Positions 23,924 to 52,150 of a stretch of 57,838 nucleotides of DNA are shown piece after piece. This stretch comes from a bacterium (GTDB taxonomy: Bacteria; Patescibacteriota; Minisyncoccia; Phycocordibacterales; Zambryskibacteraceae), in contig JAUSDP010000070.1 in NCBI GenBank assembly GCA_030650605.1, positions 1 to 57,838 on the forward strand, written 5' to 3'. The notes beneath the pieces were generated by a model. That model was not told the origin of the DNA. It searched no databases and was given only the letters and a program-made list of their open reading frames with translations. How positions within the stretch are numbered: the stretch's first letter is position 1; every line of letters starts with the position of its first letter. Both the position numbers and the translations under genes were made by a program.

Positions 23924-25675
23924 ATGATGCGGGGGCCAAAAAACAGGCTGCGTCTCCTCTCTTTCTTCATAGTTCTTTTTGCCTTATTACTTGTTAGTAG
24001 ACTTTATATTATACAAATTGTATCGAGAGAAAAATTTGAAGCTAAAGCGGAACATCAATACATTGCTGGAGTAAATTATTTTGATCGAGGTTCAATATAT
24101 TTTACTGCAATGGATGGATCACTCATCCCAGCGGCCAGTCTTAAATTTGGGTTTATTCTTCATATTAATCCCCGTATTTTAAGTTTGCGTAAGGACGTAG
24201 CGGAAATTTATGAAATAGTGAACGCCATCACTCCAATTAACAAAGAGGAGTTCCTAATTAAAGCAGGCAAATATGATGATCCATACGAAGAATTGGCAAA
24301 ACATTTAACAATCGAGATAGCAGAAAAAATCCGCGCACTTAAAATCTCCGGTCTAAGTATGAGTCAGGAGAAGTGGCGTATCTATCCAGGTGATACTATG
24401 GCGGCACATACTATTGGCCTTATTGGCTACTCTGGCAATGAACTTGCTGGGCGATATGGACTAGAGCGCTTTTATGAATCCGTACTCAAAAGGAGTCGGG
24501 ATAGTGTTTTTGTCAACTTCTTCGCTGAAATTTTTTCTAATATAAAGAAAGCAGTTAGTCAAGATGAGAGTTTGGAAGGAGATATTATCACTAGTATTGA
24601 ACCATCGGTAGAAGCGTTTCTAGAAAGTGAATTGGAAAAAGTGACTGATAAATACAACTCGGACTTTACCGGTGGTGTAGTGATTAATCCAAAAACCGGA
24701 GAAATTTTTGCTATGGCGCTCACTCCTACCTTCGATCCTAACTCACCACAAAATGAGAATAATTCGACCATCTTTAGTAATAGACTAGTAGAAGACCGTT
24801 ACGAGATGGGGTCAATCGTAAAGGCTCTCACATTGTCCGTAGGACTCGACTCTGGAGCAATAACGGCCAAAAGCACTTATAACGATCCTGGATGTATAAC
24901 TCTCAACACAAGGACTTTCTGCAATTATGATGGCAAATCACATGGTTCTGGTCTATCCATGCAGATAGTACTCAATAAGTCGCTCAATACTGGAGCCGCC
25001 TTTGTAGCCTCTCGTGTAGGAAATTCCAAATTCAATAACGCAATGCTCGCTTTTGGCCTTGATAACATTACTGGCATTGATTTACCGAATGAAGGTAAGT
25101 CCCTTGTTTCAAATCTTAAAACTAATCGAGATTTAGAGCCGGCGCAGGCATCTTTCGGTCAAGGTATTGCTCTTACCCCTATCACCACCGTTCGCGCTCT
25201 CTCAGCTCTCGCCAATGGCGGCACGCTTATCACTCCCCACTTGGTTAAAGAAATTAAATACAAACTAGGACCAACCAAGACTATAGTCTATCCGGGAGAA
25301 GAGGGAAGGGAACGAGCCTTGAGTCCGGAAACTTCGACAGAAATATCACGCATGTTGACAGAAGTGGTGGACCGATCTTTGCGTGAAGGTAGGGTTAGAC
25401 TCGAGAACTACAGTATTGCTGCCAAGACTGGTACCGCGCAAATAGCTAAACCAGGTGGGGGAGGATATTATGATGACCGTTATCTTCACTCCTTTTTCGG
25501 ATACTTCCCGTCGTATGAACCGAAGTTTCTAGTCTTTCTCTACACTTATTATCCAAAAAATGTGCACTATGCATCGGAAACCTTAACTGACACGTTTATA
25601 AATATGACTAAATTTCTCATAAATTATTATAACATCCCACCTGATAGAGAGACACCTCCGCCTTCGCGTAGTTGA
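23924..25675 (+). CDS. ftsI: Class B penicillin-binding protein (FtsI)
   Basis: SIVK, SLN and KTGT motifs; dcw position. Confidence 0.9.
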   Translation: MMRGPKNRLRLLSFFIVLFALLLVSRLYIIQIVSREKFEAKAEHQYIAGVNYFDRGSIYFTAMDGSLIPAASLKFGFILHINPRILSLRKDVAEIYEIVNAITPINKEEFLIKAGKYDDPYEELAKHLTIEIAEKIRALKISGLSMSQEKWRIYPGDTMAAHTIGLIGYSGNELAGRYGLERFYESVLKRSRDSVFVNFFAEIFSNIKKAVSQDESLEGDIITSIEPSVEAFLESELEKVTDKYNSDFTGGVVINPKTGEIFAMALTPTFDPNSPQNENNSTIFSNRLVEDRYEMGSIVKALTLSVGLDSGAITAKSTYNDPGCITLNTRTFCNYDGKSHGSGLSMQIVLNKSLNTGAAFVASRVGNSKFNNAMLAFGLDNITGIDLPNEGKSLVSNLKTNRDLEPAQASFGQGIALTPITTVRALSALANGGTLITPHLVKEIKYKLGPTKTIVYPGEEGRERALSPETSTEISRMLTEVVDRSLREGRVRLENYSIAAKTGTAQIAKPGGGGYYDDRYLHSFFGYFPSYEPKFLVFLYTYYPKNVHYASETLTDTFINMTKFLINYYNIPPDRETPPPSRS

Positions 25676-25711
25676 TTCATCATTCATTGTTCGCTATTGT
25701 TTCTTCTACGG

Positions 25712-25735
25712 CTTGCCCTGAGCGAAGTCGAAGGG
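25712..25735 (-). repeat. Element family A, abutting the pseudo-tRNA 5' end
   Basis: Reverse complement CCCTTCGACTTCGCTCAGGGCAAG. Confidence 0.8.
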
Positions 25736-25816
25736 CCTCATCGTTCCCGATTTCCTTTCAGGAAATCGAGGATCCGCGATTCCGATTAGATAATCGGAAT
25801 CGGGACTAACGGTAAG
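25734..25816 (+). pseudogene. 5' fragment of tRNA-Glu interrupted by a 61-nt family E double hairpin (25745-25805)
   Basis: Removing 25745-25805 gives GGCCTCATCGTCTAACGGTAAG; first 16 nt identical to the tRNA at 26156. Confidence 0.8.
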
Positions 25817-25827
25817 TTATTTCTAAA

Positions 25828-26073
25828 ATGTTCTACGTTTATATACTTCAATCAAACAGAAACGGCTCTTACTACATTGGATGTACAGATGATATAACGA
25901 GAAGACTTTCTGAACACAATATGGGTAAAGTAAAGAGCACTAAAGCATATAAGCCATGGTTGTTGCAGTACACAGAGAAATATAATACATTATCAGAAGC
26001 CCGGAAACGTGAGAAACAAATCAAACATTGGAAAAGCAGAACGGCAATTGAAAGATTGCTAAAAAAATTGTAG
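25828..26073 (+). CDS. Solitary GIY-YIG nuclease (UPF0213/SLX1-like)
   Basis: YVYILQS...YYIG...RRLSEHN...REKQIK. Confidence 0.92.
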   Translation: MFYVYILQSNRNGSYYIGCTDDITRRLSEHNMGKVKSTKAYKPWLLQYTEKYNTLSEARKREKQIKHWKSRTAIERLLKKL

Positions 26074-26086
26074 TATCGTGGAGAAG

Positions 26087-26157
26087 GTCCCGTCCTCGAT
26101 TAAAAATCGGGACGAGGACCCTCGATTTTATAGAAACTGCATTTGATAAAATCGGGG
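26087..26157. repeat. Family E hairpin cluster abutting tRNA-Glu
   Basis: CCTCGATT...AATCGGG arms occur twice. Confidence 0.75.
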
Positions 26158-26227
26158 CCTCATCGTCTAACAGTTAGGACGGAAGCTTCTCAAGCTTTAA
26201 ATCCGGGTGCGATTCCCGGTGAGGTCA
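26156..26227 (+). tRNA. tRNA-Glu(CTC)
   Basis: GGCCTCA/TGAGGTC acceptor, GAAGC-TTCTCAA-GCTTT anticodon arm, CCGGG-TGCGATT-CCCGG T arm. Confidence 0.92.
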
Positions 26228-28537
26228 CAATTTGAAACCTGTTTCTGTTACAGCCACGTCGTCAATATCACAAACGCCGCTGACACAGGCGAGTTCCGCT
26301 TTCTGGTCCAACTCATTGGTCTGTTCATAAGTCACAATTTTTGAGAAATCAATATTACCCAATCGCTTTAGCATTTCTTTGTACGTCTTTTCATCAATGG
26401 ATTCGTAGGGAGCAAGTTTATAGACATGATTTTCTCTTGGTAGAAAAGCTAATCCTCCAACGATATCCCAGTTTTTGTAAACCCAATTAGCAACATCGAT
26501 CCATTCATCATCACCAATAGAAATAGTGGTGGAAGGATTATGTTCAGTAAAGTTTTCTTTAACCATTTTCCAATACTCCAATTGTTCGAGCGCGGTTTGG
26601 TCATTTTTAAAAATGGCGCGGTCCGGAGCTTTCATCGGGAAATCTAAAACGTAAGTAGTGGCATTCTCCATAGTTTGTCCAGCTTCTGGATGAAATGGCA
26701 CACCCTGGTCACGAAGCATTTTGAAAAGCGCATCGGTCGAGGCTATACGCACACGTCGAATATAGAAGGCAGAGTGTCTCGGATGAATCCCCGAAGAACA
26801 ATCGACAGTTTGAGAAAGATTCCCAGACGGTTTGATACAAGTGACACAAGTGGATTGATTGATACTAAATCGTTTAGCGTAAACTTTATTTATTTTTATC
26901 ACTTCATCACGTAATTTACGCATAACTTCAGGACTTCGCACAGTTGGACAATCCCACTGTCCAGAGATTGAAACACCAAGTAAGGCTTCCTTTTTGCAAT
27001 TCTTTTTCCATTCTTTTGAGAGGTATGGAAAATTGGTAAGTGATGCTTGATATGTACCTAAAATTGTGGCTACTCTAATTTTGCGCATAAGAGTGGCCTC
27101 CGTATCTTCTACACGTGCAACGATTTCTGACAAATTACAGAATTGCTTAGATTGTAGAATAATCTCCCCACACGGATTACCGCCCCAACGTGGCGTGGTT
27201 TCTGGAGTAAACTGCGCCAAACGACGTTTGGGTAAAGTCAGTTGCAAGCCGCCACGATTATAGATACCCCGTTCACCAGAGCGAGATTTTATCAGAGCAA
27301 TCCATTCTTCCATAAACTCCTCATTACTAGGTTTGGTCTCATAGACGGCAGAATTATTAGAAAGCATTCGTTGAGGATCTGTATTCCAAAATTGTCCTTT
27401 TTTGGCATCACGAATAGCGATATCTTCTAAGTCTGAAAGTGAAATCATAGCACTTCGACGCACACCACCCGCTACTACAATATTGCCTATTTCACACATA
27501 ATATCGTGCGCATCGATGTTTTCTAATCGTTTGCCTTGTTTGGCTAATATTTTTCTTCTTGCAAAAGTAAGCAGTTCGCGCAAAGGTTCTGGTCCTGATG
27601 ATTTACCTCCCATAGTCTTAAGTCGAGCGCCGGCAGGACGAAGTTTTGAATAATCAAACTCGATATCTAAACCATTTGCCCAGGTCTCCATACCAAGAGT
27701 TAACGCCTCACACCATCCTTCTTTGCTATCAGCAATAACATGTGTTGGTAATTTTTTCCCAGTCTGACGTTTTATTTGTGGAAGTTTTTGAATGTTTTCA
27801 CTTTCTGCTGACCATCCCACACCAGCACCCGACATCGAGATAAACATAATCTCGGAGAAATCTTTAAAAGTTTCTGGTGCTATGTAAGAACAATTGTAGG
27901 CACACACATTGTTGACACGCGCCGCTGTACCAGCAAACTGCAAGAGTCGCATTGACGGCATGGCTTCATGTTTCAAGATTGCTTCTCTAACTTCGGCATA
28001 CTCGGAATCTTTTAATTTATCACCGAGAGTCTCCTTCATAAAATCTACATACCTATCTACTGTTTCTATCCAACACTCTCTACGATTCTCTTCATCAATC
28101 CATTTTGAATAAGTGCGATAATAAACAAATTCGCCAAGTTGGTTTTTAAAATATTTTTTACTATCGGCAACAAGTCTTTTAACTTTTTGTGGCACCTCAA
28201 CACCCTTATAACGAAGTTTGGTACGCTCTTCCCGATAGATAATATAGGCCTTGGCTGTGGCAAGAAATTTCTGAAGCATGAGCTCTGCTTCCACTAGATC
28301 TTGTACTCCCTCAACTGTAGGAGTTGCCACCGATCCATCTGCTTTCGGCAATAATAATTTTTTAGAAACGGCCTCAGCAACTCTTTCCGGTGCGCCTTGA
28401 TCAAATTCTTTAGCAGCGTGCATAGCTTTCTCTATAGCGCGAGCAATTTTACTGTTGTCAAAAGAAACAACTGAACCGTCTCGTTTTATTATTGAGGTAA
28501 TTCGTGTGGACTTAGTGGTAAAGACAGTTTTTTTCAT
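26225..28537 (-). CDS. nrdJ: Class II (B12-dependent) ribonucleotide reductase with ATP cone
   Basis: IIKRDG ATP cone, NPCGEI, CIKPSG, C-terminal CVSGVC. Confidence 0.9.
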   Translation of the reverse strand: MKKTVFTTKSTRITSIIKRDGSVVSFDNSKIARAIEKAMHAAKEFDQGAPERVAEAVSKKLLLPKADGSVATPTVEGVQDLVEAELMLQKFLATAKAYIIYREERTKLRYKGVEVPQKVKRLVADSKKYFKNQLGEFVYYRTYSKWIDEENRRECWIETVDRYVDFMKETLGDKLKDSEYAEVREAILKHEAMPSMRLLQFAGTAARVNNVCAYNCSYIAPETFKDFSEIMFISMSGAGVGWSAESENIQKLPQIKRQTGKKLPTHVIADSKEGWCEALTLGMETWANGLDIEFDYSKLRPAGARLKTMGGKSSGPEPLRELLTFARRKILAKQGKRLENIDAHDIMCEIGNIVVAGGVRRSAMISLSDLEDIAIRDAKKGQFWNTDPQRMLSNNSAVYETKPSNEEFMEEWIALIKSRSGERGIYNRGGLQLTLPKRRLAQFTPETTPRWGGNPCGEIILQSKQFCNLSEIVARVEDTEATLMRKIRVATILGTYQASLTNFPYLSKEWKKNCKKEALLGVSISGQWDCPTVRSPEVMRKLRDEVIKINKVYAKRFSINQSTCVTCIKPSGNLSQTVDCSSGIHPRHSAFYIRRVRIASTDALFKMLRDQGVPFHPEAGQTMENATTYVLDFPMKAPDRAIFKNDQTALEQLEYWKMVKENFTEHNPSTTISIGDDEWIDVANWVYKNWDIVGGLAFLPRENHVYKLAPYESIDEKTYKEMLKRLGNIDFSKIVTYEQTNELDQKAELACVSGVCDIDDVAVTETGFKL

Positions 28538-33408: not shown

Positions 33409-33428
33409 CCCCGCCATGGCGGGGCAAG
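33409..33428 (+). repeat. Hairpin element family C (intergenic)
   Basis: CCCCGCCATGGCGGGGCAAG. Confidence 0.8.
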
Positions 33429-37730: not shown

Positions 37731-37778
37731 CCCCTCGATTCACCCCGCCTATTTCAGGCGGGGCAAGCTCGGGGCAAG
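37731..37778 (+). repeat. Family C element nested inside a family A-like element
   Basis: CCCCTCGATTCA[CCCCGCCTATTTCAGGCGGGG]CAAGCTCGGGGCAAG. Confidence 0.7.
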
Positions 37779-38328: not shown

Positions 38329-38367
38329 CAACAATCCCCGCCAGTAATGGCGGGGATTGTTGTTTTG
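38329..38367 (+). terminator. Intrinsic terminator
   Basis: CAACAATCCCCGCC/GGCGGGGATTGTTG followed by TTTT. Confidence 0.8.
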
Positions 38368-45122: not shown

Positions 45123-46993
45123 GATAGTTTTTCTGGCTGAATAAAGACATTGTACCAAATAGCGAGCATGAGAAGGAGATAAATCTTTCTTGAATTATCA
45201 ACTTTTCGCGAAGTATGATTGTCTATGAGATTCCTAATGTAGGCAATATTCATGTGTTTTTGGATATATGGATTATCTATAATAGTGTTATAAATATCTT
45301 TTCTTTCACTCGTAAACCAATTTCTAATAGGCGTTGGAAAACCAAGTTTCTTTCTTGTACGTACTGACTCCGGTAAAACTTTTTTAAACGCCTCACGTAG
45401 AAGATATTTAGTGCTACCATCTCTCCATTTGAATCGGTCAGGGAGAGTGGCAGCGAGACGAGCCACTTCCATATCAAGAAACGGTACCCTCAATTCAAGC
45501 GAATGCGCCATGGTCATTTTATCGGCCTTGGCTAAGATATCTCCAACCAGCCAAGTGTTAATGTCAATAAATTGCATCATAGTAGAGTCACTTAAACCTT
45601 TTGCCCTTCTGTATAGTTGCCCTAACCCTGTGTCCAAGTCAGCCTTTGACAGGTGAGTTTTCCATAATTTATCTATTTCATCTTGTTTGAAGATAGAAGC
45701 ATTGCCTATATACCAATCTTCAAGATGCTGACTTGCTCTTTTGGCGTAATTTTTACCTCTAAAATCAAAAGGTAGATTGATAATAAAGTTTAAGATAGTA
45801 TTTGGTATCCAAGTAAGCCATCGACGAGCAAACGGTTCAAGGTAAATATTATAACCGCCAAAAAGTTCGTCCGCACCTTCGCCCGAGAGTACTACCTTGA
45901 CGTGTTTAGCTGCTTCTCGAGCAAGAAAATACAGTCCAAGAGCTGACGGATCAGCCACTGGCTCATCAAAATACCAAACTACTTTAGGTAAAACCTTGAA
46001 ATATTCATCGGCACTGATAGTGATTTCGTGATGAAGAGTTTGAAGCGGCAGAGCGGTTTCTAGAGCTTCCCTACCTTCACTTAGGGATTCAAATCCAACA
46101 GTAAAAGTCTGAATCTTTTGTCCCGATTTCGTTTCCGAAATCGAGGATCCTCGATTAGTTTCAACTAATCGGGACATTAGAGAAACGATAATACTTGAAT
46201 CTATGCCACCTGAAAGAAAAGAACCAACAGCAACATCAGCAATCATGTGGTGAGAAACAGAATCCTTCATTATTGCAAAAATTTCTTTCGCTATTTTACT
46301 TTCATTAAGAGAATCATTTTGCTTGAATTCAAACCGCCAATACTTTTTCATCTCCACTCTGCCAGTTTTTAAATCTATCTTCATATAATGGGCAGGCGGG
46401 AGTTTAAAAACATTTTTAAAAAAAGTTTCTTCCAAAGGATTATATTGAAATGAAAGGTAGTTAAAAACTGCCGCATCATTAACTTCTGGATTGAATTCCG
46501 CAAGTGGAATAAAACTCTTTATTTCGGACGAGAAGGCAGCAATCTTAGCGTCTTTAGCCCAATAATAGAGGGGTTTGATGCCAAAAAAATCTCTAACAAG
46601 AATGAGTTCAGTTTTCTCTCTATCATAAATCGCGAAAGCAAACATACCACGCAGACGAGAAAATTCATTGAGACCATAGACTTCAAACATACGCAAAACA
46701 ACTTCGGTGTCACTCTCTGTCTTAAATTCTTGTCCTGCCTGCAGGAGTTCAGCGCGTAATTCCTTATAATTATAAATTTCTCCGTTGAAGAAAATAAGAA
46801 ATCTGCCATCAGACGAAAAGAGTGGTTGTCTACCTCCGGCAATATCAATAATTGAAAGTCGTCTCATACCTAGAGCAAGATACTCATCTGCAAAAAAACC
46901 AGTATCATCTGGTCCACGATGACGAATGGCATCCGTCATTTTTTGAATGTCATCTTTCTCTATCGGATTAATTAGCCCTGTTATGCCACACAT
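45119..46993 (-). CDS. asnB: Glutamine-dependent amidotransferase, AsnB/LtsA family
   Basis: MCGI, HRGPD, SGGIDS, SGEGADE and RVPFLD motifs. Confidence 0.92.
   Translation of the reverse strand: MCGITGLINPIEKDDIQKMTDAIRHRGPDDTGFFADEYLALGMRRLSIIDIAGGRQPLFSSDGRFLIFFNGEIYNYKELRAELLQAGQEFKTESDTEVVLRMFEVYGLNEFSRLRGMFAFAIYDREKTELILVRDFFGIKPLYYWAKDAKIAAFSSEIKSFIPLAEFNPEVNDAAVFNYLSFQYNPLEETFFKNVFKLPPAHYMKIDLKTGRVEMKKYWRFEFKQNDSLNESKIAKEIFAIMKDSVSHHMIADVAVGSFLSGGIDSSIIVSLMSRLVETNRGSSISETKSGQKIQTFTVGFESLSEGREALETALPLQTLHHEITISADEYFKVLPKVVWYFDEPVADPSALGLYFLAREAAKHVKVVLSGEGADELFGGYNIYLEPFARRWLTWIPNTILNFIINLPFDFRGKNYAKRASQHLEDWYIGNASIFKQDEIDKLWKTHLSKADLDTGLGQLYRRAKGLSDSTMMQFIDINTWLVGDILAKADKMTMAHSLELRVPFLDMEVARLAATLPDRFKWRDGSTKYLLREAFKKVLPESVRTRKKLGFPTPIRNWFTSERKDIYNTIIDNPYIQKHMNIAYIRNLIDNHTSRKVDNSRKIYLLLMLAIWYNVFIQPEKLS
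45631..45651. repeat. Degenerate family F element, in-frame in asnB (LSKADLD)
   Basis: TGTCCAAGTCAGCCTTTGACA imperfect palindrome, 21 nt. Confidence 0.5.
46121..46174. repeat. Family E double hairpin, in-frame in asnB (18 aa SRLVETNRGSSISETKSG)
   Basis: TCCCGATTTC...GAAATCGAGGATCCTCGATT...AATCGGGA; same architecture as 25745-25805. Confidence 0.9.
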
Positions 46994-51155: not shown

Positions 51156-52150
51156 GATAGTTTTAATCCAACTTTATCCCTCACTATTTCCATCTTCTTC
51201 TCCACTCTTTCGCGGGCCACTCTACCACCCTCTCGCAATACTTCAAGAACTGTATCTTTATCTTTTTCCAGTTTTTGTCTCTTCTCACGAATTGGCCTGA
51301 TAAAATCTTGCAGATCGTCTATTAACATCTCTTTAAGAATTTTGTACTTTCCTTTATTTTCTTTATACAAATTATCGAGCAATTCTTTATCTTTGAGCAG
51401 AGCATGAATAGCATAGACATTTTCCGGATGTTCACCCGAAGAGTCTGTCACAATATTCATCACAACTTTCTCGATATCATCATCAGTAGCAAAGAGAGAA
51501 ATAGTATTACCATAGCTCTTTGACATCTTCCTACCATCAAGCCCGGGAACAGTAGCCACATCTTCCAAAATAAGAGGTTCGGGTAGTTTAAATGTTTCAC
51601 TTGCCCCGTCCTTGGCGGGGCCAAAAATGCGATTAAATTTCTCTGCTGTATCGCGAGCAATCTCAACGTGCTGTTTCTGATCTTGTCCAACCGGTACCAC
51701 ATCAGCATCTTGAATGAGAATATCAGCTGCCATAAGCAACGGATAATCAAATAATCCAACGTTGGGTTCTTTACCATTAGCTACGGCATCTTTATAAGCA
51801 TGCGCTCGCATTAGGTAAGGTACGGTTGTTAGACAATTAAAAATCCATGCAAGCTCTGTCACTTGTGGCACATCGGATTGTTTATAGATACAAACTTTTT
51901 TAGGATCGAGTCCGATAGCTAGATAATCAAGAACGACATTAATGGTATTGTTCACCAACTCTTCCCTATTCTGGACTGTAGTGATGGCGTGTAAATCTGC
52001 GATAAAAATGTAACTCTCATAAACATCTTGCAACTCGACAAACCGCTTCATAGCACCAAAGTAGTTCCCAATATGTGGCTTACCTGTGGGTTTAACTCCA
52101 GATAACAGTATTTTCCTTGTCTTGAGCGAAGTCGAAAGATTGTCTGACAT
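51152..52150 (-). CDS. trpS: Tryptophan-tRNA ligase
   Basis: HIGN, ADLHA, VPVGQDQ and KMSKS motifs. Confidence 0.95.
   Translation of the reverse strand: MSDNLSTSLKTRKILLSGVKPTGKPHIGNYFGAMKRFVELQDVYESYIFIADLHAITTVQNREELVNNTINVVLDYLAIGLDPKKVCIYKQSDVPQVTELAWIFNCLTTVPYLMRAHAYKDAVANGKEPNVGLFDYPLLMAADILIQDADVVPVGQDQKQHVEIARDTAEKFNRIFGPAKDGASETFKLPEPLILEDVATVPGLDGRKMSKSYGNTISLFATDDDIEKVVMNIVTDSSGEHPENVYAIHALLKDKELLDNLYKENKGKYKILKEMLIDDLQDFIRPIREKRQKLEKDKDTVLEVLREGGRVARERVEKKMEIVRDKVGLKLS
51600..51620 (-). repeat. Family C element, in-frame in trpS (PAKDGAS)
   Basis: CCCCGCCAAGGACGGGGCAAG, 21 nt. Confidence 0.85.
52116..52139 (-). repeat. Family A element, in-frame at the trpS N-terminus (LSTSLKTR)
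   Basis: TCTTTCGACTTCGCTCAAGACAAG; compare 25712-25735. Confidence 0.8.

What the first reader, a model, noticed from the sequence alone, without database searches (positions are those of the whole stretch)
25712..26227. GIY-YIG nuclease between a broken tRNA-Glu 5' copy and the intact tRNA-Glu, wrapped in the hairpin elements: candidate mobiliser
Seen, in order: family A element, GGCCTCATCGT, a 61-nt family E element, CTAACGGTAAG, an 81-aa GIY-YIG gene, two more family E hairpins, intact tRNA-Glu(CTC). Excising the 61 nt restores 16 nt identical to the tRNA 5' end. Both tRNA starts share their first GG with an element arm. The family E unit has the same architecture as the one in asnB 20 kb away. 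Known: SLX1-like GIY-YIG enzymes cut branched or hairpin DNA, and REP/RAYT systems pair a single nuclease with flanking palindromes. Inference: a REP-like system in which a tRNA-docked GIY-YIG nuclease, not a Y1 transposase, spreads the hairpins.
Basis: partly seen in the sequence, partly recalled or inferred. Interest (0 to 1): 0.88.

Follow-up and report, generated by a model that had tools for sequence, protein, structure and literature searches.

The report
tRNA-embedded mini GIY-YIG nuclease cassette
A tiny nuclease gene has been inserted, with hairpin DNA, into the front of a tRNA gene that was partly duplicated to keep it working, and similar nuclease-and-tRNA-piece layouts occur at many tRNA genes in distant bacterial groups, which points to a little-noticed kind of selfish DNA.

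Summary
In order, the window holds a family A 18-mer, 11 nt of tRNA-Glu 5' end, a 61-nt double hairpin (E), 11 more tRNA-like nt, an intact 81-aa Slx1/UPF0213-type GIY-YIG gene, a second E-like double hairpin, and intact tRNA-Glu(CTC).

A related genome has the same PBP-tRNA-RNR locus with only 37 nt where this one has 480 nt. The block is therefore an insertion or deletion carrying a 22-nt tRNA duplication.

The layout is general:
- A same-strand tRNA lies within 160 nt of 9 of 12 GIY copies in this bin, 16 of 28 relatives' loci and 55 of 80 loci from many phyla.
- Pieces of that tRNA usually lie on the other side of the GIY gene.
- GIY clades track tRNA type.

The best reading is a selfish, homing-type "mobile ORF" cassette that targets tRNA genes. 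The hairpins are conserved cassette parts, better conserved than the ORF.

- Most hairpins lie far from any GIY gene.
- Genomes without a small GIY still carry hairpins.
- GIY genes without a tRNA nearby rarely have hairpins (2 of 33 loci).
- RAYT-like Y1 transposases are present.

The parts
25710..25733 (+). 24-nt block absent from the related empty site. It holds the family A 18-mer (25717-25734) and abuts the stranded tRNA 5' piece.
   Evidence: Comparison with G011. The 18-mer has 17 copies (up to 3 mismatches) dispersed in the bin, mostly far from tRNAs.
25734..25744 (+). Stranded tRNA-Glu 5' piece, positions 1-11. It sits at the ancestral position of the tRNA start.
   Evidence: 12-nt direct repeat with 26155-26166. 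In G011 the tRNA starts at the matching place after the PBP flank.
25745..25805 (+). Family E element: two tandem hairpins of the TCC-GATT...AATC-GGA type, inserted exactly between tRNA positions 11 and 12 with no target duplication.
   Evidence: z -6.3. An orthologous E lies upstream of the closest GIY homolog in G008.
25806..25816 (+). Stranded tRNA-Glu piece, positions 12-22 (9 of 11 match the tRNA).
   Evidence: Read. The fragment ends at about the same tRNA position in the tRNA-Arg cassette on C74.
25828..26073 (+). 81-aa minimal GIY-YIG nuclease gene (Slx1/UPF0213 type).
   Evidence: Pfam PF01541 E 1.4e-17. PDB 1YWL and 1ZG2, E about 3.6e-8. Y5, Y16, G18, R26, E62 and K66 are invariant in 45 relatives.
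26086..26157 (+). E' element: a second two-hairpin E-like unit between the GIY stop and the tRNA. Its last GG is the tRNA's first GG.
   Evidence: Fold z -5.9. 67 of 80 aligned nt are identical to the G008 ortholog, against 170 of 246 for the ORF.
26156..26228 (+). Intact tRNA-Glu(CTC), the only tRNA-Glu found in the bin.
   Evidence: ARAGORN; Rfam RF00005 57.6 bits.
46121..46174 (.). Family E copy inserted in frame in asnB. It is unrelated to any GIY gene or tRNA.
   Evidence: Of the 11 relatives' loci aligned at this loop, 6 have no insert and 5 have inserts: other palindromes in G003, G013 and G039, a dispersed repeat in G001, and an unexamined insert in G018.

Best explanation
The 81-aa ORF is an intact, minimal Slx1/UPF0213-type GIY-YIG nuclease gene. 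It is carried on a cassette of about 420 bp that sits inside the 5' end of the tRNA-Glu(CTC) gene.

The cassette is bounded by a duplication of tRNA positions 1-22. The old 5' piece is stranded upstream and is split by hairpin element E. A complete tRNA follows the nuclease gene.

This is one member of a large, cross-phylum class. Each small-GIY lineage is tied to one tRNA type. The gene lies on the tRNA's strand, either between a 5' tRNA piece and the whole tRNA, or between the whole tRNA and a 3' piece.

It works like a free-standing homing endonuclease, or like a fungal mitochondrial 'mobile ORF' that brings its own copy of the gene end. The proposed steps, all inferred, are:
1. The nuclease breaks a cassette-free tRNA gene.
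2. Repair copies the nuclease gene plus the carried tRNA end from a filled allele.
3. The resident end is left behind as a dead piece.
4. Cassettes later decay and are lost.

The hairpins (family E and other TCCCGA...TCGGGA types, CCCCGCC...GGCGGGG, CCTGCCTGC...GCAGGCAGG) are conserved cis parts of the cassette. They probably act as structured DNA or RNA at the ends of the nuclease transcript or at the cut site. They belong to palindrome families that also spread on their own to tolerant sites, in the manner of REP or RPE elements. What moves them there is not settled.

Shown here: the anatomy, the empty site, the recurrence, the clade-to-tRNA link, the decay relics and the hairpin conservation. 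Inferred: cleavage, homing, and any role of the hairpins.
For: Nuclease identity:
- Searches identify the protein and show its catalytic residues conserved.

Insertion:
- G011 (RNR 88% aa identity) has PBP stop, 37 nt, tRNA-Glu(ctc), RNR. The window has 480 nt there, and the stranded piece sits at the ancestral tRNA start.
- G008 is also empty at the 5' side; the rest of that site reads N.

tRNA link:
- 9 of 12 own copies have a same-strand tRNA within 160 nt, against 1.3% expected (binomial P 2e-15).
- 16 of 28 relatives' loci and 55 of 80 wide loci do too. Every such tRNA is on the GIY strand.

Partial duplication:
- With the tRNA downstream, exact pieces of at least 9 nt from its 5' part lie upstream of GIY in 11 of 13 loci and 27 of 36 loci.
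- With the tRNA upstream, 3' pieces lie downstream of GIY in 20 of 25 loci.
- Searches show the layout by eye for Glu, Ala, Arg, Ser, Gln, Tyr, Asn, Asp, Lys, Val, Leu and Met.

Lineage specificity:
- On a tree of 119 GIYs the tRNA label changes 39 times, against a mean of 58 (minimum 50) in 500 shuffles.

Gain and loss:
- 26 of 31 related genomes have 1-11 matches.
- A GIY 3' relic lies before tRNA-Tyr on C42. A partial GIY lies on C108. Solo hairpin-bearing fragments without GIY lie on C79, C108 and C34.

Hairpins as cassette parts:
- Flanks are more conserved than the ORF. Tyr cassette: 66/75 flank against 188/237 ORF. Glu cassette: 61/75 and 67/80 flanks against 170/246 ORF.
- Stem changes are compensatory.
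- The same families occur next to GIY in MAGs labelled Acidobacteria, Bacteroidia, Chitinophagaceae, Gammaproteobacteria and CPR.
- Flanking inverted repeats of at least 9 nt occur in 32% of 112 loci, against 6.6% of shuffles.

Precedents:
- T4 SegB is a GIY-YIG homing enzyme in a tRNA cluster, and its site contains the T-psi-C stem-loop motif (PMC2330249, abstract read).
- Fungal mORFs carry a duplicated gene end (PMC3630166, passages read).
Against: - The protein is only 81 aa and has no DNA-binding module. Site-specific cleavage as in SegB or I-TevI is therefore doubtful.
- The intact tRNA of the filled allele differs from the empty-site tRNA of G011 at only 2 positions. Why it would escape cutting is unexplained.
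- 25 of 80 wide loci and 12 of 28 relatives' loci have no tRNA within 160 nt, and whole clades lack one.
- The literature treats prokaryotic Slx1-like proteins as vertically inherited repair factors. It notes fusions or operons with a TrmH-like and a COG4123 methyltransferase, which hints at a cellular RNA role (PMC1564403, passages read).
- In L016 the stranded piece is of the Gln(ttg) type while the intact gene is Gln(ctg). This does not fit a simple 'resident end left behind'.
- The control for the piece counts was not clean: 23 of 58 on the far side of the tRNA, because tRNA copies and fragments also lie there.
- The empty site is in another species, so insertion and deletion cannot be told apart strictly.
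- The tree rests on 79 columns, and 61 of 115 inner branches are unresolved.
- The bin is 1.14 Mb against 0.4-0.9 Mb for relatives, and several tRNAs are duplicated. '12 copies' may therefore come from two genomes.
Confidence: 0.65

Rival explanations
1. The tRNA-docked GIY-YIG nuclease is the trans-acting mobiliser of the dispersed hairpins, as a REP/RAYT-like system with a GIY-YIG enzyme in place of a Y1 transposase. This can coexist with the best explanation.
For: - The same three hairpin families flank GIY genes in distant phyla. By REP/RAYT logic, cognate repeats flank their enzyme gene.
- E and E' bracket the ORF in both G000 and G008.
- The five RAYT-like genes with flanking hairpins carry other hairpin families, not these (3; L138 and L141). 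The other seven Y1 loci scanned showed no clear flanking pair.
- In two Bacteroidetes genomes, about 20-30 CCTGCC-type hairpins coexist with 9 GIY matches each, and some lie 25 nt from a GIY gene.
- Hairpin counts rise with GIY counts: rho 0.45 for the CCCGCC type and 0.50 for the TCCCGA type.
- Slx1-type enzymes cut branched and stem-loop DNA (PMC1564403 background passage, plus my own knowledge).
Against: - 180 of 190 GC-rich hairpins in the bin lie more than 300 nt from any GIY gene.
- G017, G001 and G028 have 7, 7 and 3 CCCGCC hairpins. G017 and G028 show only a UvrC-size GIY-YIG frame, and G001's single frame is 175 aa.
- GIY genes away from tRNAs almost never have hairpins: 2 of 33 loci against 27 of 68.
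- Y1_Tnp counts correlate as well: rho 0.46 and 0.37. All five non-CPR genomes tested also have Y1_Tnp.
- The genomes are kin, so these correlations overstate the case.
- Hairpin insertions are exact, without target duplication. This fits single-strand Y1 transposition as well.
Confidence: 0.2
2. The hairpins are independent REP/RPE-like palindromes, moved by the RAYT-like Y1 transposases or by an unknown route. They simply pile up in tolerant, highly transcribed, tRNA-like dead DNA, and the GIY gene is a bystander to them.
For: - RAYT-like ORFs with HxH and Y motifs, flanked by their own hairpins, are present.
- Hairpins occur in solo tRNA fragments without GIY (C79, C108, C34).
- They also occur in the asnB loop and in the spacer upstream of the 23S rRNA gene.
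- The asnB loop took different palindromes in G003, G013 and G039, a dispersed repeat in G001 and an unexamined insert in G018, out of 11 relatives aligned.
- Hairpins follow the tRNA context and not GIY itself.
Against: - The hairpin-bearing flanks are more conserved than the adjacent ORF and show compensatory changes. This is not expected for junk.
- An identical 20-nt palindrome sits in the same D-arm context in Bacteroidia and CPR cassettes.
- The families seen at GIY cassettes were not the ones flanking the five RAYT genes that had flanking hairpins.
Confidence: 0.3
3. The small GIY-YIG protein is a host factor for tRNA or DNA maintenance that is merely co-transcribed with tRNAs. The tRNA pieces come from unrelated local duplication.
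For: - UPF0213 proteins are widespread.
- They are fused to or neighboured by a TrmH-like and a COG4123 methyltransferase (PMC1564403, passages read).
- The gene is always on the tRNA's strand and immediately next to it.
- Some clades have no tRNA pieces and look stable.
Against: - Presence or absence differs at the same locus between close relatives.
- Copy number varies from 0 to 11 per genome.
- Relics and partial copies exist.
- Each copy is bracketed by a duplication of the very tRNA it adjoins.
- Five of 31 related genomes show no match with this protein query, three of them 99-100% complete. With the Pfam model, four of the five show only a UvrC-size frame and G001 a 175-aa frame.
Confidence: 0.1

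Closest known systems
Phage T4 SegB (free-standing GIY-YIG homing endonuclease in the tRNA gene cluster)
   Same: - It has a GIY-YIG catalytic domain.
- The gene sits among tRNA genes.
[quoted passage not shown]
- It drives inheritance of itself and neighbouring tRNA genes (PMC2330249, abstract read).
   Different: - SegB, as I recall, is a longer protein with a DNA-binding part; the protein here is the bare 81-aa Slx1-like domain.
- The case here is cellular (CPR and other phyla), and only 6 phage records match.
- Here the gene sits inside a tRNA gene with a partial duplication and hairpin elements.
Fungal mitochondrial mobile ORFs (mORFs) that create 'gene hybrids' (Allomyces atp6; Glomus atp6, atp9, cox2, nad3)
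   Same: An endonuclease ORF (LAGLIDADG, or GIY-YIG in atp9) is inserted in a gene together with a carried copy of the gene's end. The native end is left beside it as a fragment, and relatives show the empty state (PMC3630166, passages read).
   Different: - The targets there are protein genes in organelles, and the duplicated end is the 3' one.
- Here the targets are bacterial tRNA genes, either end can be duplicated, the nuclease is a minimal Slx1-like domain, and the stranded piece is studded with palindromes.
REP/RAYT systems
   Same: - Short GC-rich palindromes are dispersed in many copies.
- A nuclease gene is flanked by them.
- Insertions are exact, without target duplication.
   Different: - The defining enzyme is a Y1 HUH transposase. 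Such genes exist here separately, with their own hairpins.
- No evidence shows that the GIY enzyme acts on hairpins.
Rickettsia palindromic elements (RPE; recalled from my own knowledge, no paper read here)
   Same: Palindromic elements are inserted in frame in protein genes and in RNA genes. Compare the E copy in asnB.
   Different: RPEs are longer and restricted to Rickettsia. No sequence relation was tested.
GIY-YIG ORFs in non-intron insertions of CPR rRNA genes
   Same: Small GIY-YIG genes lie inside stable-RNA genes of CPR bacteria (PMC11270868, passages read).
   Different: [quoted passage not shown] 'tRNA' occurs 0 times in that paper's main text.

Membership tests
GIY-YIG superfamily, Slx1/UPF0213 branch | Pfam GIY-YIG domain over the curated cut-off | tested here: met
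   PF01541 64.2 bits against a cut-off of 22.6, residues 1-71.
GIY-YIG superfamily, Slx1/UPF0213 branch | Conserved catalytic Tyr..Tyr-x-Gly..Arg..Glu residues | tested here: met
   Y5, Y16, G18, R26, E62 and K66 are invariant, and H30 and N31 are at least 90% conserved, in 45 sequences. Assigning these to catalytic roles is recalled and was not tested.
GIY-YIG superfamily, Slx1/UPF0213 branch | Nearest solved relatives are the bacterial stand-alone UPF0213 proteins; single domain with no extra modules | tested here: met
   1YWL and 1ZG2 are the only PDB matches (E about 3.6e-8). The protein is 81 aa.
Homing endonuclease / mobile ORF | Presence/absence polymorphism at the same locus in relatives | tested here: met
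   Empty site in G011, and in G008 at the 5' side. This was seen between species only. A possible empty-site contig in the source run is ambiguous.
Homing endonuclease / mobile ORF | Sequence-specific DNA-binding module | tested here: not met
   No domain beyond the 71-residue catalytic core.
Homing endonuclease / mobile ORF | Cleavage of the cassette-free allele and copying into it | not testable with these tools
   Needs enzyme and cross assays.
Homing endonuclease / mobile ORF | Carried duplicate of the target gene's end with a stranded native piece (mORF type) | tested here: met
   L016 is an exception.
REP/RAYT system | Y1 HUH transposase as the associated enzyme | tested here: not met
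   The gene at the finding is GIY-YIG. Y1_Tnp genes lie elsewhere in the bin (C49, C107, C72) with other hairpins.
REP/RAYT system | Many dispersed copies of the palindrome that flanks the enzyme gene | tested here: inconclusive
   E has about 8 copies in the bin. The CCCGCC type has 27 and the TCCCGA pattern 13. Most are far from GIY, and they also occur in genomes without a small GIY.
tRNA-targeting integrative element (tyrosine or serine integrase) | Integrase gene and attachment-site duplication of the tRNA 3' end | tested here: not met
   The insert of about 420 bp holds only the 81-aa ORF. Here the 5' end is the one duplicated.

The most novel reading that the evidence does not exclude
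The 81-aa nuclease carries no targeting module of its own. Specificity would instead come from nucleic-acid structure. The hairpin-studded tRNA piece next to the gene, acting as cruciform DNA or as the 5' leader RNA of the nuclease transcript, would direct the enzyme to the cognate tRNA gene. The dispersed palindromes (E, CCCCGCC, CCTGCC families) would then be non-autonomous derivatives moved by the same enzyme. That would make this a GIY-YIG-based counterpart of REP/RAYT, or of transposon-end-guided homing, operating across bacterial phyla and shaping tRNA loci and even protein loops.
Probability: 0.12. Interest if true: 0.9.

Novelty: new variant of a known kind. Interest (0 to 1): 0.74.

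Why it matters
Prokaryotic Slx1-like (UPF0213) proteins are usually filed as small, vertically inherited repair factors of unknown role. This locus and about 100 related loci suggest that many of them are instead selfish cassettes living inside tRNA genes. They show a reproducible anatomy (stranded tRNA piece, conserved palindromes, nuclease, whole tRNA) from CPR bacteria to MAGs labelled Bacteroidota, Acidobacteria and Poribacteria.

If that is right, four things follow:
- A very common 'hypothetical' gene family gets a testable function.
- tRNA-gene fragments and duplicated tRNA ends in small genomes get an explanation.
- A minimal nuclease with a natural, conserved target becomes available for study.
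- The old question of what moves short palindromes in genomes that carry them in coding regions can be tested at the bench with a few oligonucleotides.

My searches of the paper library found no description of this tRNA link. The library is open-access only, and supplements were closed.

Tried and rejected
- **Complex prediction**, two copies of the 81-aa protein with alignment A1: no verdict. It counts neither for nor against dimerisation.
- **The look-up of sequencing runs**: no RNA holder was listed, so nothing can be said on expression.
- **Read laying**, contigs only. One contig of the likely source run (depth 27 against 105) joins 25527 to 26161 and skips 633 nt, with unknown letters between. 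It may come from a co-occurring strain with an empty site, but the alignment threshold was 85% and the shorter side was 31 nt, so I do not count it as evidence.
- **Rfam** at E up to 1 found only the tRNA and one chance hit.
- **Promoter and terminator scan**: 2 promoter-like sites against 2.3 expected, and 0 terminators. It is uninformative.
- **Phage collection**: 6 records at under 60% identity. The family is not mainly phage-borne in that collection.
- **NCBIfam**: only a sub-threshold group I intron endonuclease hit (19.4 bits against 56).
- **Automatic chaining of tRNA pieces with 8-mers** was too loose. By my estimate the chance of an 8-mer match is about 0.3 per locus, it mis-chained L001, and it misses replaced arms. 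I use the 9-mer counts and the printed loci instead.
- **The 9-mer control** on the far side of the tRNA was contaminated by further tRNA copies (23 of 58).
- **A transposon reading** (terminal inverted repeats plus a 10-11-nt target duplication) was considered for 25745-26157. I rejected it because the 11 nt after E continue the tRNA match, and other cassettes show longer duplications of variable length.
- **A tRNA intron or split-tRNA reading** was rejected. The downstream tRNA is complete and the upstream pieces lack a 3' half.
- **Correlations of hairpin counts** with GIY and Y1 counts cannot separate the rivals.
- **Supplementary files of papers** were closed. The tables of PMC11270868 and PMC12455944 might list GIY-YIG contexts that I could not see.
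Full report
**1. What is in the window**

Between the stop of a penicillin-binding-protein gene (23924-25675, +) and the stop of a class II ribonucleotide reductase gene (26225-28537, -) lies 480 nt of non-coding DNA plus one small ORF.

- A family A 18-mer (25717-25734).
- 11 nt identical to the start of tRNA-Glu (25734-25744).
- A 61-nt element (25745-25805).
- 11 nt that continue the tRNA match (25806-25816).
- An 81-aa ORF (25828-26073).
- A second structured element (26086-26157).
- tRNA-Glu(ctc) (26156-26228).

The two tRNA-like stretches together match tRNA positions 1-22 at 20 of 22, with the first 16 identical. A 12-nt exact direct repeat brackets the block.

Both structured elements fold as two tandem hairpins far better than shuffles (z -6.3 and -5.9). 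So does the copy inside asnB at 46121-46174 (z -6.6).

The ORF is a GIY-YIG domain (Pfam E 1.4e-17). Its only solved relatives are the bacterial UPF0213 proteins 1YWL and 1ZG2. This is the stand-alone Slx1-like branch described in PMC1564403 (passages read). Y5, Y16, G18, R26, E62 and K66 are invariant in 45 relatives, so the enzyme looks intact.

**2. The block is an insertion or deletion in a tRNA gene**

I searched the genus with the RNR C-terminus and read the neighbouring DNA.
- G011 (RNR 88%, PBP 82% identical) has PBP stop, 37 nt, tRNA-Glu(ctc), RNR. It has no ORF and no tRNA piece.
- The PBP-side flank aligns up to the point where, in the window, a 24-nt block with the A 18-mer is followed by the stranded tRNA start.
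- The stranded piece therefore sits where the tRNA used to begin. About 420 nt, ending in a fresh copy of tRNA positions 1-22, lie between it and the rest of the gene.
- G008 is also empty at the 5' side; the rest of its site is masked.

**3. The same anatomy recurs in this bin**

tblastn finds 11 further copies in the bin, one of them partial, and ARAGORN finds 46 tRNAs. Nine of the 12 copies lie within 160 nt of a tRNA on the same strand, and 10 of 12 within 250 nt. The expected share is 1.3-1.6% (P about 1e-15).

Printing the loci shows the following:
- tRNA-Arg, tRNA-Ala(ggc) and tRNA-Ser(gct): a 5' tRNA piece, the GIY gene, then the whole tRNA.
- tRNA-Met: the whole tRNA, GIY, then a tRNA copy lacking its 5' end.
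- tRNA-Gln: a near-complete pseudo-tRNA beside the real one.

The pieces are interrupted, or have arms replaced, by short GC-rich palindromes inserted exactly, without target duplication.

**4. It recurs in relatives and in distant phyla**
- Of 31 related genomes, 26 have the small GIY, with 1-11 matches each.
- In 28 loci from other genomes, 16 have a same-strand tRNA within 160 nt: 12 downstream and 4 upstream.
- In 11 of 13 loci with a downstream tRNA, exact pieces of at least 9 nt from its 5' part lie upstream of GIY. The printed loci show this for Tyr, Ser, Gln, Asn, Asp, Lys, Ala and Glu(ttc).
- A scan of one genome per species returned 80 loci. They come from CPR groups and from MAGs labelled Poribacteria, Chitinophagaceae/Bacteroidia, Acidobacteria, Gemmatimonadota, Dehalococcoidia, Planctomycetota, Zixiibacteriota and Gammaproteobacteria.
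- Of those 80, 55 have a same-strand tRNA within 160 nt: 35 downstream and 20 upstream.
- With the tRNA downstream, 5' pieces lie upstream of GIY in 27 of 36. With the tRNA upstream, 3' pieces lie downstream of GIY in 20 of 25.
- By my estimate the chance of a 9-mer match is about 0.07-0.09 per locus. The empirical control (23 of 58) was spoiled by further tRNA copies.

The gene is in effect inserted in a tRNA gene, with a partial duplication that keeps one copy whole.

**5. Lineages, gain and loss**

On a tree of 119 GIYs, the type of the adjacent tRNA changes 39 times, against 58 on average (minimum 50) in 500 label shuffles. There are Ala(tgc), Glu, Tyr, Ser(tga), Gln, Leu(caa), Asp, Cys, Phe and Pro clades, some spanning different phylum labels. 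There are also clades with no tRNA nearby. The tree is short (79 columns) and poorly resolved.

Decay is visible in four ways:
- Before tRNA-Tyr on C42, only the last dozen or so codons of a GIY remain.
- C108 holds a partial GIY between 3' tRNA pieces.
- C79, C108 and C34 hold hairpin-bearing 5' pieces directly before a tRNA, with no GIY.
- Five related genomes, three of them 99-100% complete, show no match with the protein query. With the Pfam model, four of them show only a UvrC-size frame and G001 a single 175-aa frame.

This is the invasion, decay and loss picture of homing-endonuclease genes.

**6. The hairpins**

GC-rich perfect hairpins (stem of at least 7) number 190 in the bin, against 46-64 in shuffles. 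They fall into a few families:
- TCCCGA...TCGGGA. E is a tandem pair of this type.
- CCCCGCC...GGCGGGG.
- CCTGCCTGC...GCAGGCAGG.

Most copies lie far from any GIY or tRNA, and many lie inside long ORFs.

The asnB loop that holds E in the window differs among 11 relatives aligned there:
- G003, G013 and G039 hold other palindromes.
- G001 holds a dispersed repeat.
- G018 holds an insert I did not examine.
- Six relatives have no insert.
- G011 has, at the native site, a 14-nt string equal to the right end of E.

E also lies in the spacer upstream of the 23S rRNA gene. The palindromes therefore spread on their own.

The bin has three RAYT-like Y1_Tnp ORFs, each flanked on both sides by its own hairpin. 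Of 31 related genomes, 22 have Y1_Tnp.

The link between hairpins and GIY cassettes is nonetheless not trivial:
- The same families, down to an identical 20-nt palindrome, sit in the stranded tRNA pieces next to GIY in Bacteroidia, Chitinophagaceae, Acidobacteria and CPR loci.
- Hairpin density within 150 nt of GIY is 4-10 times that of the distal flanks in all three locus sets. Part of this is the coding/non-coding contrast.
- Flanking inverted repeats of at least 9 nt occur in 32% of 112 loci, against 6.6% of shuffles.
- In two orthologous pairs the hairpin-bearing flanks are more conserved than the ORF, with compensatory stem changes (Tyr 88% against 79%; Glu 81-84% against 69%).

On the other side:
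- Hairpins accompany GIY genes at tRNAs (27 of 68 loci) and almost never GIY genes away from tRNAs (2 of 33; Fisher P 3e-4).
- Genomes without a small GIY still have them.
- Counts correlate equally with Y1.
- The five RAYT genes with flanking hairpins carry other families.

**7. Reading**

The best-supported explanation is a selfish tRNA-gene cassette. It resembles two known things:
- Phage T4 SegB, a GIY-YIG homing enzyme in a tRNA cluster whose site includes the T-psi-C stem-loop motif (PMC2330249, abstract).
- Fungal mitochondrial mobile ORFs, which bring a copy of the target gene's end and strand the native end (PMC3630166, passages).

It differs from both in four ways: the nuclease is the bare Slx1-like domain, the targets are cellular tRNA genes in many phyla, either end can be duplicated, and conserved palindromes are built into the stranded piece.

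Cleavage and homing are inferred. The main difficulties are the lack of any DNA-binding module and the unexplained immunity of the intact tRNA.

A pure passenger model for the hairpins stands at about 0.3, and a host-function model at about 0.1. These are not all mutually exclusive.

**8. Literature**

Searches for GIY-YIG together with tRNA gene, CPR, Patescibacteria, YhbQ, UPF0213 or COG2827 found no account of this tRNA link.
- PMC11270868 (passages read) reports GIY-YIG ORFs in non-intron insertions of CPR rRNA genes. It does not mention tRNA in its main text.
- PMC12455944 mentions GIY-YIG once, among transferred genes.

The library holds open-access papers and preprints only, and supplements were closed.

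**9. Caveats**
- The bin is about twice the size of its relatives and has duplicated tRNAs, so it may mix two genomes.
- Phylum labels of MAG records are as deposited.
- Kin are not independent.
- All hairpin counts use perfect stems and miss imperfect ones such as E's outer pairing.

Noticed in passing
G000 contigs C49:2621-3457, C107:9530-10240, C72:22719-23387 (all minus strand): Three RAYT-like Y1_Tnp ORFs (223-279 codon frames with HxH and Y motifs). Each is flanked on both sides by copies of its own hairpin, the classical REP/RAYT layout. Two family E copies lie 1.3 and 2.1 kb from the C107 one.
   Followed up: partly
window 46121-46174 and loci L143-L153: The same asnB surface loop, after the SGGIDSS motif, differs among 11 relatives. 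G003, G013 and G039 have other palindromes, G001 a dispersed repeat and G018 an unexamined insert; six have no insert. G011's native site already holds a 14-nt string equal to the right end of E.
   Followed up: partly
G000 C34:12830-13040 (minus strand): Two tandem copies of tRNA-Ala(tgc) positions 1-36, one with a family E element in its D-loop. Each is followed by a C-rich spacer, and the intact tRNA follows. No GIY gene is present. The spacer is complementary to a string just after the tRNA.
   Followed up: no
G000 C42:223-290 (minus strand): Upstream of tRNA-Tyr, only the last dozen or so codons of a GIY ORF of the Tyr clade survive. Compare the intact L006 and L008. This is a decay relic.
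   Followed up: partly
G000 C69:157-210 and G008:C30:697-750: An identical 54-nt family E element occurs in two genomes. On C69 it lies just upstream of what looks like the 5' end of the 23S rRNA gene.
   Followed up: no
whole bin G000: The bin is 1.14 Mb in 110 contigs, while same-genus genomes are 0.4-0.6 Mb. Several tRNAs are present two or three times (Thr-tgt, Tyr, Trp, Phe x3, Ile-tat, Ala-tgc, Thr-ggt). The source run holds related strains at other depths. The bin may be a composite.
   Followed up: partly
G050:C19:39523-41026: In a Bacteroidia genome the CCTGCC-type palindrome recurs at a regular 130-nt spacing at least four times, as an array of unknown nature.
   Followed up: no
window 25717-25734, 52121-52138 and 15 other places in G000: The family A 18-mer has 17 copies (up to 3 mismatches) dispersed in the bin, mostly far from tRNAs. 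Related strings in the opposite orientation directly follow several tRNA 3' ends (C61, C74, C83).
   Followed up: partly
window 38329-38362, 33409-33424, 37743-37763: Further CCCCGCC-type palindromes occur in the window, one with a 15-bp stem. None is near a tRNA or a GIY gene.
   Followed up: no
G000 C74:1690-1703 and 1953-1966: A 14-nt perfect inverted repeat brackets the GIY ORF next to tRNA-Val. The right arm lies inside the ORF's last codons, so this gene sits in the loop of a large hairpin.
   Followed up: no
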